From Eledone cirrhosa (lineage: Eukaryota): 64,000 nt of DNA. Below the pieces are notes generated by a model that did no database searches, was not told where the DNA came from, and was given only the letters and a program-made list of their open reading frames with translations. Shown here piece after piece: positions 48,446 to 53,005 of the stretch. The position numbers and the translations under genes were made by a program. The stretch's first letter is position 1. Each line of letters begins with the position of its first letter. The stretch lies in contig OZ024764.1 in assembly GCA_964016885.1 (NCBI GenBank), forward strand, positions 24,490,001 to 24,554,000, given 5' to 3'.

Positions 48446-48584
48446 TTAACTCTTAAATGTTCAAACCAGCCAAAACCGGCCAGAAATTCTCTACCTCTTT
48501 CTGTTGAAACTGGCTGTAACTGGTCCCTCAAACTGATGTTAAGGTATTGTTCTCAAATAAATACTTTCAAAATCTCATAGATTC
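48446..48584. mobile_element. MITE-like arm starting TTAACTCTTAAATGTTCAAA (inverted relative to 4384 and 14350)
   Basis: Reverse complement aligns with both other arms; TTAA at 48446-48449. Confidence 0.7.
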
Positions 48585-50964
48585 GATATTATGTGAGGTA
48601 AAGCCTTTACTGTGACAATACAATAGTATATATAGAGTAATGTAAATGTTATGTGAGATATTATGAGGTAAAGCCTTTACTGTGAAAATACAATAGTATA
48701 TATAGAGTAATGTAAATGTTATGTGAGATATTATGTGAGGTAAAGCCTTTACTGTGAAAATACAATAGTATATATAGAGTAATGTAAATGTTATGTGAGA
48801 TATTATGTGAGGTAAAGCCTTTACTGTGACAATACAATAGTATATATAGAGTAATGTAAATGTTATGTGAGATATTATATGAGGTAAAGCCTTTACTGTG
48901 ACAATACAATAGTATATATAGAGTAATGTAAATGTTATGTGAGGTAAAACCTTTACTGTGACAATACAATAGTATATATAGAGTAATGTAAATGTTATGT
49001 GAGGTAAAGCCTTTACTGTGACAATACAATAGTATATATTGAGTAATGTAAATGTTATGTGAGATATTATGTGAGGTAAAGCCTTTACTGTGACAATACA
49101 ATAGTATATATAGAGTAATGTAAATGTTATGTGAGATATTATATGAGGTAAAGCCTTTACTGTGACAATACAATAGTATATATAGAGTAATGTAAATGTT
49201 ATGTGAGGTAAAACCTTTACTGTGACAATACAATAGTATATATAGAGTAATGTAAATGTTATGTGAGGTAAAGCCTTTACTGTGACAATACAATAGTATA
49301 TATTGAGTAATGTAAATGTTATGTGAGATATTATGTGAGGTAAAGCCTTTACTGTGACAATACAATAGTATATATAGAGTAATGTAAATGTTATGTGAGA
49401 TATTATATGAGGTAAAGCCTTTACTGTGACAATACAATAGTATATATAGAGTAATGTAAATGTTATGTGAGGTAAAACCTTTACTGTGACAATACAATAG
49501 TATATATAGAGTAATGTAAATGTTATGTGAGGTAAAGCCTTTACTGTGACAATACAATAGTATATATTGAGTAATGTAAATGTTATGTGAGATATTATGT
49601 GAGGTAAAGCCTTTACTGTGACAATACAATAGTATATATAGAGTAATGTAAATGTTATGTGAGATATTATATGAGGTAAAGCCTTTACTGTGACAATACA
49701 ATAGTATATATAGAGTAATGTAAATGTTATGTGAGATATTATATGAGGTAAAGCCTTTACTGTGACAATACAATAGTATATATAGAGTAATGTAAATGTT
49801 ATGTGAGATATTATATGAGGTAAAGCCTTTACTGTGACAATACAATAGTATATATAGAGTAATGTAAATGTTATGTGAGGTATTATGTGAGGTAAAGACT
49901 TTACTGTGACAAAACAATAGTATATATAGAGTAATGTAAATGTTATGTGAGGTATTATGTGAGGTAAAGCCTTTACTGTGACAATACAATAGTATATATA
50001 GAGTAATGTAAATGTTATGTGAGATAAAGCCTTTACTGTGAAAATACAATAGTATATATAGAGTAATGTAAATGTTGTGTGAGATATTATGTGAGGTAAA
50101 GCCTTTACTGTGACAATACAATAGTATATATAGAGTAATGTAAATGTTATGTGAGATAAAGCCTTTACTGTGAAAATACAATAGTATATATAGAGTAATG
50201 TAAATGTTATGTGAGATATTATGTTAGGTAAAGCCTTTACTGTGAAAATACAATAGTATATATAGAGTAATGTAAATGTTATGTGAGATATTATATGAGG
50301 TAAAGCCTTTACTGTGACAATACAATAGTATATATAGAGTAATGTAAATGTTATGTGAGGTATTATGTGAGGTAAAGACTTTACTGTGACAATACAATAG
50401 TATATATAGAGTAATGTAAATGTTATGTGAGGTATTATGTGAGGTAAAGCCTTTACTGTGACAATACAATAGTATATATAGAGTAATGTAAATGTTATGT
50501 GAGATAAAGCCTTTACTGTGAAAATACAATAGTATATATAGAGTAATGTAAATGTTGTGTGAGATATTATGTGAGGTAAAGCCTTTACTGTGACAATACA
50601 ATAGTATATATAGAGTAATGTAAATGTTATGTGAGATAAAGCCTTTACTGTGAAAATACAATAGTATATATAGAGTAATGTAAATGTTATGTGAGATATT
50701 ATGTGAGGTAAAGCCTTTACTGTGAAAATACAATAGTATATATAGAGTAATGTAAATGTTATGTGAGATATTATGTGAGGTAAAGCCTTTACTGTGAAAA
50801 TACAATAGTATATATAGAGTAATGTAAATGTTATGTGAGATATTATGTGAGGTAAAGCCTTTACTGTGAAAATACAATAGTATATATAGAGTAATGTAAA
50901 TGTTATGTGAGATATTATGTGAGGTAAAGCCTTTACTGTGAAAATACAATAGTATATATAGAGT
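48585..50964 (-). repeat. 72-bp array (~34 units) with 60-bp deletion variants and 264-bp and 480-bp higher-order repeats
   Basis: Reverse complement of the same unit; GGTAAAACC marker at ~48946/49210/49474; lines 49801-50220 repeat 480 bp later. Confidence 0.97.
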
Positions 50965-52145
50965 GATTTCTTTATTTGCCACCAGGGCACAAAAGGTAGG
51001 GACAGATACAAGGGGGGAAGTTTACATATAATTAACGAGTACAAAAATATAACAATGAAATAACAACAACAAACGAAGTCCTCAATAGGGAGGGGGTATT
51101 AACATGGGTCGCACACACCCCGGAAAAAATGTGCAACCCTTCTCCTCAGGAGCACAAAGAGTAGGTGCTTCCCTCGTCTTCTCTTTTTCCTCTTCTTTCA
51201 CCTACAGGCTGATATAGAGAGAAGACCCATTCACTCTGGCCATTCTCCCTACTTTCACCCACCTTTCATAAAACTTGCTGGGGTAGAGCACCAAAGTGAG
51301 GAAAAATGTGTGTAGCTTGGAAACAATTGGCGACACAGAGTATTTCCTGGCCGTCAATTGATCCTTCATTAGCACCGTTATATTCCCATAGAGTGGCCCT
51401 TTTTGTATGAACGATATATCACTCCACACATTTTTTAGGACCAGGTCAATCTCTTTTTGGGATAATTGAGCTGGTTTCCTTGTTATGTTGGAAATTGTTC
51501 TGAAAGATATCGTTCTTAGGGTCGTGTCTCTTTTGATTTCTTGTGGGGAGGTGATTGTGAAGTCTCCTCCTTCTTTGAAAGTTACATACTGTTTTGCTTC
51601 CTTCATCTTTTCTCTCAGAGTTGTAATGTCCAGTTGCTTGCAGGTCTGTGTTTTCCGGACCGCCTGTGCAAAGGAGGCACCAGTAGTGGGTTCGCTTTGT
51701 TTGGTGTTATCGTTATTGTTTCCTTGGTTGGTGTTGTGACTATTGCTGTTATTGTCGTTGTTGTTTTTGTCTGCGTTTATGTGACTTTCTGGGTTTTCAC
51801 CCATTTTTACAAATTTTTCTTTTAATTCCGTGTTCCATGTTTCTTTTGCAGAAGTCAGGAGGGAAGACTTAGAGCCTTGTGCTTCTAGCTTCTCTGTATC
51901 ACCTTTCTTAGGGGGCATGGCTTTCTCGTTAGGATGAGATGTGAAAATTCCGTCCATTTCTATCAGTTTGCCGTAATAAATTTTTAAATGGAAAATAAAT
52001 AAACTCAAAGTTTGACGACCCAGGCAAAGGGTTAACGTATATTATAGTACATAAACAATAAATCAAAACTCACTTTTGAGTAAGTAAATCCAACTCGGTA
52101 GCCGAGCTTGTTCACACACGTCAACACACGTCTCTCGTATACGAG
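50965..52145 (-). mobile_element. Internally deleted non-autonomous Tx1 derivative, copy 3 (1181 bp)
   Basis: Complete 5' UTR and 3' UTR of copy 2; ~4.4 kb missing; same array junctions. Confidence 0.95.
51202..51959 (-). CDS. In-frame fusion of the ORF1 N-terminus to the last 29 aa of ORF2
   Basis: MDGIFTSHPN...SKLHTFFLTL|VLYPSKFYERWVKVGRMARVNGSSLYISL*; no knuckle, EN or RT. Confidence 0.7.
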
Positions 52146-53005
52146 ATGTTATGTGAGATATTATGTGAGGTAAAGCCTTTACTGTGACAATACAATAGTA
52201 TATATAGAGTAATGTAAATGTTATGTGAGATATTATGTGAGGTAAAGACTTTACTGTGAATATACAATAGTATATATAGAGTAATGTAAATGTTATGTGA
52301 GATATTATGTGGGGTAAAGCCTTTACTGTGAAAATACAATAGTATATATAGAGTAATGTAAATGTTATGTGAGATATTATGTGAGGTAAAGCCTTTACTG
52401 TGAAAATACAATAGTATATATAGAGTAATGTAAATGTTATGTGAGATATTATGTGGGGTAAAGCCTTTACTGTGAAAATACAATAGTATATATAGAGTAA
52501 TGTAAATGTTATGTGAGATATTATGTGAGGTAAAGCCTTTACTGTGAAAATACAATAGTATATATAGAGTAATGTAAATGTTATGTGAGATATTATGTGA
52601 GGTAAAGCCTTTACTGTGACAATACAATAGTATATATAGAGTAATGTAAATGTTATGTGAGATATTATGTGAGGTAAAGACTTTACTGTGAATATACAAT
52701 AGTATATATAGAGTAATGTAAATGTTATGTGAGATATTATGTGAGGTAAAGCCTTTACTGTGAAAATACAATAGTATATATAGAGTAATGTAAATGTTAT
52801 GTGAGATATTATGTGAGGTAAAGCCTTTACTGTGAAAATACAATAGTATATATAGAGTAATGTAAATGTTATGTGAGATATTATGTGGGGTAAAGCCTTT
52901 ACTGTGAAAATACAATAGTATATATAGAGTAATGTAAATGTTATGTGAGGTAAAGCCTTTACTGTGACAATACAATAGTATATATAGAGTAATGTAAAGG
53001 GTAAA
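52146..53005 (-). repeat. 72-bp array (~12 units) ending in a TIR-like terminus AATGTAAAGGGTAAA
   Basis: Same unit; last bases resemble the arm terminus AAATGCTAAAGGATTAA at 14473-14489. Confidence 0.93.

What the first reader, a model, noticed from the sequence alone, without database searches (positions are those of the whole stretch)
48446..53005. The 72-bp target is the amplified subterminal segment of a TTAA-ended MITE: a nested MITE > minisatellite > LINE unit
Seen: every downstream array runs into the same ~140-bp arm (4384-4520, 14350-14489, 48446-48584), ending in TTAA in two of three cases. At locus 3 the far array ends AATGTAAAGGGTAAA (reverse complement TTTACCCTTTACATT), similar to TTAATCCTTTAGCATTT read from the locus 2 arm, so both termini appear to survive around 4.5 kb of array and LINE. 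The LINE insertion point AACAT-TTACATT-ACTCT lies in the TIR-like part of the unit. Known: TTAA followed by CCC is the piggyBac terminus, and Xenopus Tx1L inserts in internal tandem repeats of the TTAA-flanked Tx1D transposon. Inference: an invertebrate parallel of that system, possibly mobile as a composite.
Basis: partly seen in the sequence, partly recalled or inferred. Interest (0 to 1): 0.85.

Follow-up and report, generated by a model that had tools for sequence, protein, structure and literature searches.

The report
Retrotransposon nested in transposon-born minisatellite
A short, abundant animal DNA transposon has spawned a 72-base tandem repeat from its own left end, and a young retrotransposon sits at the same base of that repeat in all three places seen, which parallels a known frog system, although the three-layer unit does not appear to jump as one piece.

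Summary
All three downstream 72-bp arrays run into one ~140-bp arm, two ending in TTAA. Public reads laid on one unit plus arm show the parent. Thousands of records put TTAACCCTTTAG directly before the unit, and hundreds of contigs end the arm in its reverse complement. This is a 220-bp piggyBac-type MITE with 14-bp TIRs, mostly monomeric. The unit is its bases 9-80, starting inside the left TIR. An L1/Tx1-group LINE shares one 3' junction (3 of 3) and one 5' junction (2 of 2).

Composite mobility is not supported. Arms differ by 19-20%, units by 2-3.5% and LINEs by 0.4-3%. Both TIRs at 48446-53005 are damaged, and locus 2 has no left TIR.

Best reading: old immobile MITE copies had their left segment overwritten by a shared young array through ectopic exchange, and the LINE inserted separately at a fixed site. 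Both layers have Xenopus precedents (Xmix/Xstir; Tx1L in Tx1D). Genome-wide targeting and a partner transposase could not be tested, because no genome is held.

The parts
48446..48449 (-). TTAA target-site copy at the MITE right end, locus 3
   Evidence: sequence
48450..48463 (-). Right TIR remnant of locus 3; 6 of 14 positions differ from the family TIR CCCTTTAGCATTTA
   Evidence: one search compared with the read consensus
48446..48584 (-). Right arm of the MITE, locus 3
   Evidence: 81-85% to arms 1 and 2; 25 of 134 and 28 of 138 substitutions
48585..50964 (-). Array downstream of LINE3: 35 units (23 of 72 bp, 10 of 60 bp, 1 of 70 bp, 1 partial) with 264- and 480-bp higher-order periods
50965..52145 (-). 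LINE copy 3, 1181 bp: both ends intact, about 4.4 kb of the middle deleted (non-autonomous); 2-3% substitutions from LINE2 in its ORF1 and 3' parts
52146..52998 (-). Array upstream of LINE3, about 12 units; the outermost is a 60-bp unit
52991..53005 (-). Left end remnant: TTTA + CCCTTTA joined to CATT.., i.e. the family left end with a 7-bp deletion and a mutated TTAA
   Evidence: family left end
7693..8291 (+). Locus 2 upstream array; no left TIR, abuts a fragment of another repeat
8292..13923 (+). Full-length LINE copy 2, 5632 bp, no poly(A) tail, AATAAA ending 6 bases before its 3' end
8493..10226 (+). LINE ORF1, 577 aa, with one CCHC knuckle (Pfam zf-CCHC E 0.007, below the curated cut-off)
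10248..13686 (+). LINE ORF2: APE endonuclease, RT, C-terminal zf-RVT; one frame change in a G-run near 10440-10455 (may be a sequencing error)
13924..14349 (+). Locus 2 downstream array, 6 units
14350..14489 (+). Locus 2 right arm; TIR 14472-14485 with 2 of 14 mismatches; TTAA 14486-14489
1..3308 (+). LINE copy 1 (5' part outside the window), 12 differences in 3308 bp from copy 2
3309..4384 (+). Locus 1 downstream array, 15 units of mixed haplotypes
4385..4520 (+). Locus 1 right arm; TIR with 1 of 14 mismatches, TTAA lost

Best explanation
Three layers of different age. (1) SHOWN: a 220-bp non-autonomous piggyBac-type MITE (TTAA, 14-bp TIR CCCTTTAGCATTTA) is abundant and mostly monomeric in the genome. 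(2) SHOWN: the 72-bp unit is MITE bases 9-80; it starts with the inner 6 bp of the left TIR. INFERRED: it was first duplicated by slippage or repair between two CATT words that bound it. (3) INFERRED: one young array type then spread between old, already immobile MITE copies by ectopic recombination or gene conversion through the shared segment. This left old arms and decayed TIRs around young arrays. Arrays change length locally by unequal exchange. (4) SHOWN in 3 of 3 copies: an L1/Tx1-group LINE has the same 3' junction at unit base CATT|ACTCT. INFERRED: its APE endonuclease recognises this site and copies arrive one by one by target-primed reverse transcription. Priming is probably helped by a transcript that runs a few bases into the target, since there is an AATAAA just before the junction and no poly(A) tail. 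The MITE-array-LINE composite is not a cut-and-paste unit today.
For:: loose ends before 14274 end in TTAACCCTTTAG in 570 of 38,599 laid contigs (X1) and 6,760 of 29,067 laid reads (X24; 971 more at 14271). Column agreement is only 0.57-0.59, so the flanks are diverse. Loose ends behind 14456 read to ..TTTAAATGCTAAAGGGT in 382 contigs. Only 124 reads go back 72 bases, so tandem copies are about 2-3% in that library; arms 18.7-20.3% apart; 72-bp units 1.7-3.5% apart between loci; two unit types make up 28 of 59 72-bp units and both occur in all five arrays; LINE1 vs LINE2 0.4%; terminal units differ 3/76, 3/64 and 1/64 against arms 24/133, 28/132 and 33/134 (p 0.003, 0.003, 1e-5; similar without CpG columns). 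Four of the 7 variable sites in the locus-1 array carry the same letter as a common family-wide variant in the reads; the first three units after LINE1 are of the locus-1 CATGG type, like the unit next to its arm, whereas LINE2 is followed by CACAG units, so LINE1 was not copied together with its downstream array. APE-RT-zf-RVT ORF2; 285 bits to a fish element linked to a ZCCHC3-type ORF1, against 178 bits to human L1 ORF2p.
Against: Only three LINE copies, all within 53 kb, were seen; local recombination could give the same junction three times from one insertion. The laid stretch held no LINE sequence and no listed loose end showed a LINE junction (679 rows were not shown), so targeting is untested genome-wide. 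X24 is a RAD library whose reads end at a restriction-type site in the arm (14451), so the monomer-to-array ratio is biased against array interiors. No single listed record spans the whole 228 bp; the longest shown (X1 record 1, 183 bp) covers 14274-14450 with 5 bases before it. The coincidence test at locus 1 gives p 0.003 if the letter counts and 0.06 if only the position does, and it used only the 40 variant rows shown of 98. Inter-locus exchange is inferred from divergence contrasts, not observed.
Confidence: 0.6

Rival explanations
1. One LINE insertion, then copying by recombination. The LINE entered an array once. LINE plus short flanks was then copied between arrays by homologous recombination through the units, so identical junctions need no target specificity.
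For: Three copies lie within 53 kb. Both visible 5' ends are full length and identical, which is unusual for independent LINE insertions (general knowledge). Array divergence between loci (2-3.5%) is of the same size as LINE divergence (0.4-3%). Shared unit types show that arrays do exchange.
Against: LINE1 and LINE2 are 99.6% alike but are followed by different unit haplotypes from unit base 19 onward, so a conversion tract would have had to end within 18 bp of the LINE. Precise 3' junctions are typical of target-specific non-LTR elements (PMC4640811, passages).
Confidence: 0.2
2. LINE-carried arrays. Read-through transcripts include whole units on one or both sides, and each retrotransposition delivers a fresh array into an old monomeric MITE. 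This would explain young arrays in old arms.
For: No poly(A) tail. All 5 visible LINE flanks are arrays of 6 or more units. Array and LINE ages agree. Co-transcription with the target strengthens targeting in R2-type elements (PMC4494074, passage).
Against: The units next to LINE1 are local types, not those next to LINE2. An AATAAA just before the junction suggests that transcripts end within the first unit. No RNA data were obtained.
Confidence: 0.12
3. Composite cut-and-paste. MITE plus array plus LINE moved as one piggyBac-dependent unit.
For: Both termini are recognisable around 4,560 bp at locus 3. Xstir arrays in Xenopus are reported to have moved with their TIRs (reference title seen in PMC6004289). 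A 2026 Octopus vulgaris annotation lists recently active piggyBac families, if the host is an octopus.
Against: Arms are 19-20% apart while LINEs are 0.4-3% apart. Locus 3 has 6 of 14 mismatches in the right TIR and a 7-bp deletion in the left. Locus 2 has no left TIR and locus 1 has lost TTAA. No transposase was seen in the window (ORF list; only the LINE ORFs were scanned against Pfam).
Confidence: 0.05
4. In-place amplification with a conserved unit. Each old MITE copy amplified its own left segment, and the units agree only because that segment changes slowly.
For: It is the simplest reading of the anatomy. The unit has no CpG. Locus 1's terminal unit shares its CATGG variant with other units of that array.
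Against: Across the family the segment is as variable as the arm (variants at 14293, 14301, 14310, 14311 and 14324 in about 30-55% of X24 reads). Excluding CpG columns does not remove the contrast. The same two unit types occur in all five arrays.
Confidence: 0.03

Closest known systems
Xenopus laevis Tx1L in Tx1D (Tx1 clade non-LTR retrotransposon in a non-autonomous piggyBac family)
   Same: An APE-type two-ORF LINE found at a fixed site inside a non-autonomous piggyBac-type DNA transposon (PMC4494074, PMC1950540, PMC6719617; passages). That the Tx1L site lies in Tx1D's internal tandem repeat is recalled, not seen: the primary paper PMC85248 is not held.
   Different: The host here is a 220-bp MITE and the target repeat is made from its own TIR and left subterminal bases. 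The junction shows a 7-bp loss or, read across tandem units, a 65-bp duplication, against the short (about 23-bp, recalled) duplication of Tx1L. The target sequence is unrelated as far as seen. The host is apparently an invertebrate (recalled from repeat types, untested).
Xenopus Xmix MITE and Xstir tandem repeats
   Same: A TTAA-targeting MITE whose internal segment is amplified into tandem arrays; MITE, array and composite forms coexist (PMC6004289, PMC12628747; passages).
   Different: Xmix has AGGRR termini and is Kolobok-type; this MITE has CCCT termini, piggyBac-type. No LINE nested in Xstir is mentioned in the passages read.
miDNA4 (X. tropicalis Tc1/mariner MITE) and mollusc MITE-satellite pairs (CvA/HindIII, BIV160, Donax MITEs)
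   Same: A satellite monomer sits inside a MITE as one copy or as an array. Microhomology-bounded expansion and homogenisation among paralogous arrays have been proposed (PMC9659126, PMC12628747; passages).
   Different: A different superfamily; the monomer there is central rather than TIR-overlapping; no targeted LINE is described in the passages read.
Coral CMITE piggyBac/TTAA MITEs
   Same: 13-14-bp TIRs, CC[C/T]T terminus, TTAA duplication, tendency to form tandem arrays (PMC2872659, passages).
   Different: CMITE arrays are of whole elements; here a 72-bp sub-segment is amplified.

Membership tests
piggyBac/TTAA MITE | TTAA target-site duplication | tested here: met
   TTAA precedes CCC in the read consensus at the left end and closes the arm at 2 of 3 window loci. 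Both sides of one intact copy were not seen in a single record.
piggyBac/TTAA MITE | 12-19-bp TIRs beginning CC[C/T]T (criterion from PMC2872659) | tested here: met
   14-bp TIR CCCTTTAGCATTTA: the left end comes from loose ends before 14274 plus window bases, the right end from loose ends behind 14456.
piggyBac/TTAA MITE | Short, non-coding, high copy, dispersed | tested here: met
   228 bp with both TTAA; 38,599 contigs and 29,067 reads laid, with diverse flanks. Copy number itself cannot be read from these data.
piggyBac/TTAA MITE | Autonomous piggyBac transposase with matching TIRs; empty-site alleles | not testable with these tools
   No genome is held for this window.
Kolobok / T2 MITE | RR (AGGRR) terminus after TTAA (criterion from PMC6004289) | tested here: not met
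   The terminus is CCCT.
L1/Tx1 group non-LTR retrotransposon | Two ORFs; ORF2 with N-terminal APE endonuclease, RT and C-terminal zinc finger | tested here: met
   Pfam Exo_endo_phos, RVT_1 and zf-RVT all above cut-off; best PDB match is human L1 ORF2p, E 3e-51.
Tx1 clade (as distinct from L1 clade) | RT phylogeny with named Tx1 elements | tested here: inconclusive
   No labelled Tx1 reference was available and no tree was built. Higher score to a fish element linked to ZCCHC3-type ORF1 domains (285 bits) than to human L1 (178 bits). The link between ZCCHC3-type ORF1 and Tx1 is recalled.
Tx1 clade (as distinct from L1 clade) | ORF1 with RNA-binding domains and CCHC knuckle | tested here: inconclusive
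   zf-CCHC E 0.007, below cut-off; Atlas feature score 0.90-0.92 to CCHC and ZCCHC3-type clusters, a lead only.
Target-specific non-LTR retrotransposon | Same insertion site across independent copies genome-wide | tested here: inconclusive
   3 of 3 3' junctions and 2 of 2 5' junctions are identical in the window; their independence is argued, not proven; no genome-wide count.
Composite mobile element (MITE + array + LINE) | Intact TIR pair with TTAA, and all parts equally alike between copies | tested here: not met
   Arms 18.7-20.3% apart against LINEs 0.4-3%; no locus with two intact termini.

The most novel reading that the evidence does not exclude
A self-reinforcing partnership. The LINE's endonuclease nicks a TIR-derived site in old MITE copies all over the genome. 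Repair of those nicks from array-bearing donors converts monomers into young 72-bp arrays, which multiplies the LINE's own safe target sites. The retrotransposon would thus drive a homing-like spread of a minisatellite through a dead DNA-transposon family, without any transposase.
Probability: 0.12. Interest if true: 0.75.

Novelty: new member of a known kind. Interest (0 to 1): 0.45.

Why it matters
It gives a second, independent-looking case of a LINE that lives inside the tandem repeats of a non-autonomous piggyBac element, so far a Xenopus example in the passages read. The target here can be traced base by base to its parent MITE. The age contrast (old arms, young arrays, younger LINEs) makes a standing question testable in one genome: do TE-derived satellites disperse by riding the transposon or by recombination between resident copies? 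These three loci point to recombination. If specificity is confirmed, the endonuclease is also a new sequence-specific APE domain with a defined site of about 10 bp.

Tried and rejected
No genome is held for this window, so the consensus, transposase and empty-allele checks could not be run on an assembly.

Collection scans gave nothing. A degenerate 20-base TIR motif in metagenome contigs found 40 loci; none matched the arm convincingly beyond the motif (best E 0.001, 63 bp at 68%) and none had a partner TIR above 12 of 16, so all were treated as chance. A 26-base left-end motif in genome contigs gave 0 matches. ORF2 in viral contigs gave no confirmed relative.

No other copy of the MITE was found in the window: 3 TIR-motif matches at up to 3 mismatches against 0.85 expected, two of them arms 1 and 2.

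No RNA holder was listed, so nothing is concluded about expression. Cluster look-up of 7 ORF2 relatives gave no informative names. Folding of the LINE ends was not significant (z -1.6 and 0.2).

A chimeric origin of LINE3 was considered because BLAST gave 92.7% for its 5' part and 98.5% for its 3' part. It was rejected: the gap is due to indels in the 5' UTR, and substitutions are 3.0% and 2.4%. Kolobok/T2 assignment was rejected on the terminus. Segmental duplication of whole loci was rejected: masked self-comparison shows no shared flanks beyond the arms. Earlier scan findings: four look-ups returned nothing.
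Full report
OBSERVATION. The window holds five arrays of one 72-bp unit (3309-4384, 7693-8291, 13924-14349, 48585-50964, 52146-52998) arranged around three copies of one LINE. All three downstream arrays continue into the same ~140-bp arm (81-85% by BLAST, E 1e-30 to 1e-37; alignment). The arm ends in TTAA at loci 2 and 3 and not at locus 1. The far array of locus 3 ends TTTTACCCTTTACATT on the minus strand; 6 of 7 bases match TTAACCC, chance 0.0014 at a fixed place. 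The LINE's 3' junction is identical in 3 of 3 copies and its 5' junction in 2 of 2 visible, with TTACATT of the unit absent.

THE PARENT ELEMENT. No genome is held, so I used public runs. Of 24 runs listed for 13300-14700, four were laid on 14245-14560 (one unit, arm 2 and flank) at 80% likeness. In X1, 38,599 of 17.1 million contigs were laid; in X24, 29,067 of 12.5 million raw reads; in X5, 261; in X7, 1. Loose ends before 14274 have a consensus ending TTAACCCTTTAG in 570 contigs of X1 and 6,760 reads of X24, and 971 further reads at 14271 end TTAACCCTT. Agreement is 0.57-0.59, as expected for a shared terminus with unrelated flanks. Loose ends behind 14456 run to ..TTTAAATGCTAAAGGGT in 382 contigs. 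Put together, the family is 220 bp between two TTAA (228 with them) with a 14-bp TIR, CCCTTTAGCATTTA. Only the best-supported rows were shown (679 loose-end rows, 65 joint rows and 58 variant rows were not), and no listed record spans the whole element. The unit begins at CATTTA, the inner 6 bp of the left TIR, and covers bases 9-80. The terminus fits the piggyBac criterion (TTAA, 12-19-bp TIR, CC[C/T]T; PMC2872659, passages) and not the Kolobok/T2 one (AGGRR; PMC6004289, passages).

ARRAYS ARE A MINORITY FORM. In X24, 124 reads go back 72 bases against 7,731 led by the TIR, and depth upstream of the unit is 2.5% of depth on it. X24 is a RAD library whose reads end at 14451 in the arm, so this under-counts array interiors. 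The same MITE also makes 60-bp tandems (90 reads) and 43/44-bp tandems of its right arm (244 reads), so it seeds several minisatellites. The unit is bounded by CATT at its start and, in arms 1 and 2, CATT at its end, which offers a microhomology for the first duplication (inference). Most family reads have T at 14346 instead, so that form is a minority or was itself imposed by the array.

THREE CLOCKS. Arms differ by 26/136, 25/134 and 28/138 substitutions (18.7-20.3%). The 59 full 72-bp units (16 shorter or partial units of 75 left out) differ by 1.7-3.5% on average between loci. Two unit types account for 28 of the 59 and both occur in all five arrays. Even the unit touching each arm differs by only 3/76, 3/64 and 1/64, against 24/133, 28/132 and 33/134 for the arms in the same alignment (Fisher p 0.003, 0.003, 1e-5; similar without CpG columns). 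The segment is not conserved family-wide: five unit positions vary in about 30-55% of X24 reads. LINE1 and LINE2 differ at 12 of 3,308 bases; LINE3 differs from LINE2 at 20 of 662 in ORF1 and 8 of 330 at the 3' end. So arrays and LINEs are young and the arms are old. The locus-1 array varies at 7 sites among its 72-bp units, and 4 of them (three events) carry the same letter as a top family-wide variant (p 0.003 counting the letter, 0.06 counting position only). I read this as exchange between arrays and dispersed copies. It is an inference from sequence patterns.

COMPOSITE MOBILITY. A unit that moved whole would have arms as alike as its LINEs; they are not. At locus 3 the right TIR has 6 of 14 mismatches, and the left end has lost 7 bp and reads TTTA for TTAA. 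Locus 2 has no left TIR. Locus 1 has lost TTAA and its left end lies outside the window. Masked self-comparison shows no shared flanks, so the loci are not segmental duplicates either.

THE LINE. Copy 2 is 5,632 bp. ORF1 (577 aa) has one weak CCHC knuckle. ORF2 starts at 10248, changes frame in a G-run near 10440-10455, and carries APE, RT and zf-RVT domains. The closest protein found is 71% identical and unnamed, and the next group is 39-46% identical. ORF2 scores 285 bits against a fish protein that also bears ZCCHC3-type domains and 178 bits against human L1 ORF2p: L1/Tx1 group, Tx1-leaning, not proven by a tree. There is no poly(A) tail; AATAAA ends 6 bases before the junction. Copy 3 keeps both ends and lacks about 4.4 kb of the middle, with no clear microhomology at the join. 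The missing TTACATT covers the last 3 bp of the TIR-derived part and the next 4 bp. In a tandem array a 7-bp loss cannot be told from a 65-bp duplication. Evidence that the insertions are independent: LINE1 is followed by three locus-1-type (CATGG) units, matching the unit next to its own arm, while its 99.6% twin LINE2 is followed by CACAG units. Against independence: the copies are clustered, and both visible 5' ends are full length.

MECHANISM. Shown: the parent MITE, the origin of the unit, the identical junctions, the age contrast and the damaged termini. Inferred: microhomology-led first duplication, spread of one array type among old MITE copies by ectopic exchange, and endonuclease-directed insertion of the LINE. 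I put this combined reading at 0.6 (MITE origin alone about 0.97). Rivals: one insertion copied by recombination 0.2; arrays delivered by LINE read-through 0.12; composite transposition 0.05; in-place amplification 0.03.

WHAT IS KNOWN. Tx1 of Xenopus laevis inserts into Tx1D, a non-autonomous piggyBac family (PMC4494074; PMC6719617; PMC1950540; PMC1919474; all passages). The primary paper is not held, and a search for Tx1 with PTR-1 found nothing, so the internal-tandem-repeat detail is recalled. MITE-derived tandem repeats are well known: Xmix/Xstir, miDNA4 and bivalve cases (PMC9659126; PMC6004289; PMC12628747; passages). Precise 3' junctions are usual for target-specific elements (PMC4640811, passages). 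The repeat landscape looks like an octopus genome to me; that is recall and no call tested it. A 2026 O. vulgaris annotation lists recently active L1-Tx1 and piggyBac families but, in what I saw, no nesting (PMC13282606: first third of the text, passages and a search of its one listed supplement; the supplement store gave no answer, so other files may exist). PMC10294476 (passages) lists L1-Tx1 and piggyBac as widespread in molluscs. Eight paper searches found no description of this nested family. They cover open-licence papers only; Repbase, Dfam and subscription journals were not searchable, and the MITE and LINE may be catalogued there.

VERDICT. Each layer has a precedent and the whole parallels Tx1L/Tx1D, so it is a new member of a known kind. 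The feature worth following is the young shared array inside old, immobile MITE copies. Interest 0.45.

Noticed in passing
window 8392-8403 (+) and 52024-52035 (-): The LINE 5' UTR holds a TIR-like word, TTAACCC(C/T)TTGC, about 100 bp inside its 5' end and pointing the same way as the MITE's left end. These are the only two matches to TTAACCC[CT]TT in the window. May be chance.
   Followed up: partly
window 8292-8303 and 52134-52145: The LINE begins with a perfect 12-bp palindrome, CTCGTATACGAG; folding of the region was not significant.
   Followed up: partly
run X7 on window 14245-14316: A run under another organism label gave a single contig, a perfect 72-bp tandem junction, and no monomeric MITE, although it holds 37% of the words of 13300-14700. 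Unexplained; it may mean that the array and LINE are the most homogeneous high-copy sequences.
   Followed up: no
window 14409-14460 (reads): The MITE's right arm has a subterminal direct repeat spaced 43-44 bp that also forms tandem arrays elsewhere (244 reads); five contigs go back 183 bases, perhaps head-to-tail whole MITEs.
   Followed up: no
window 16854-17256, 54705-55220, 57094-57491: A SINE-like repeat with an internal 112-bp tandem (2.1 and 3.1 copies) occurs twice, 97% alike and 38 kb apart, with a monomeric relative at 57094: a second dispersed element with an amplified internal segment.
   Followed up: no
window 4901-5529, 45862-46398, 46704-47846, 53137-53315, 53483-54120: Other minisatellites (69, 45, 57, 45 and 48 bp); the 69-bp unit resembles unique sequence at 4564-4600 and the 48-bp array runs into a SINE-like repeat, so the region is generally prone to tandem amplification.
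   Followed up: no
window 56435-56788, 59295-59417, 59606-59701, 60217-60375, 60422-60503, 63465-63719: Six short foldback elements (82-355 bp, five of them 91-95% self-complementary), most flanked by TA runs.
   Followed up: no
window 22232-38833 and 38905-42475: A 16.6-kb AT/GT-rich satellite (period 22/42) next to a 3.6-kb CAC-type array.
   Followed up: no
window 19100-22000, 15133-15726, 62380-63100: Decayed fragments of other LINE-like elements with many stops (read from sequence; not classified by a tool).
   Followed up: no
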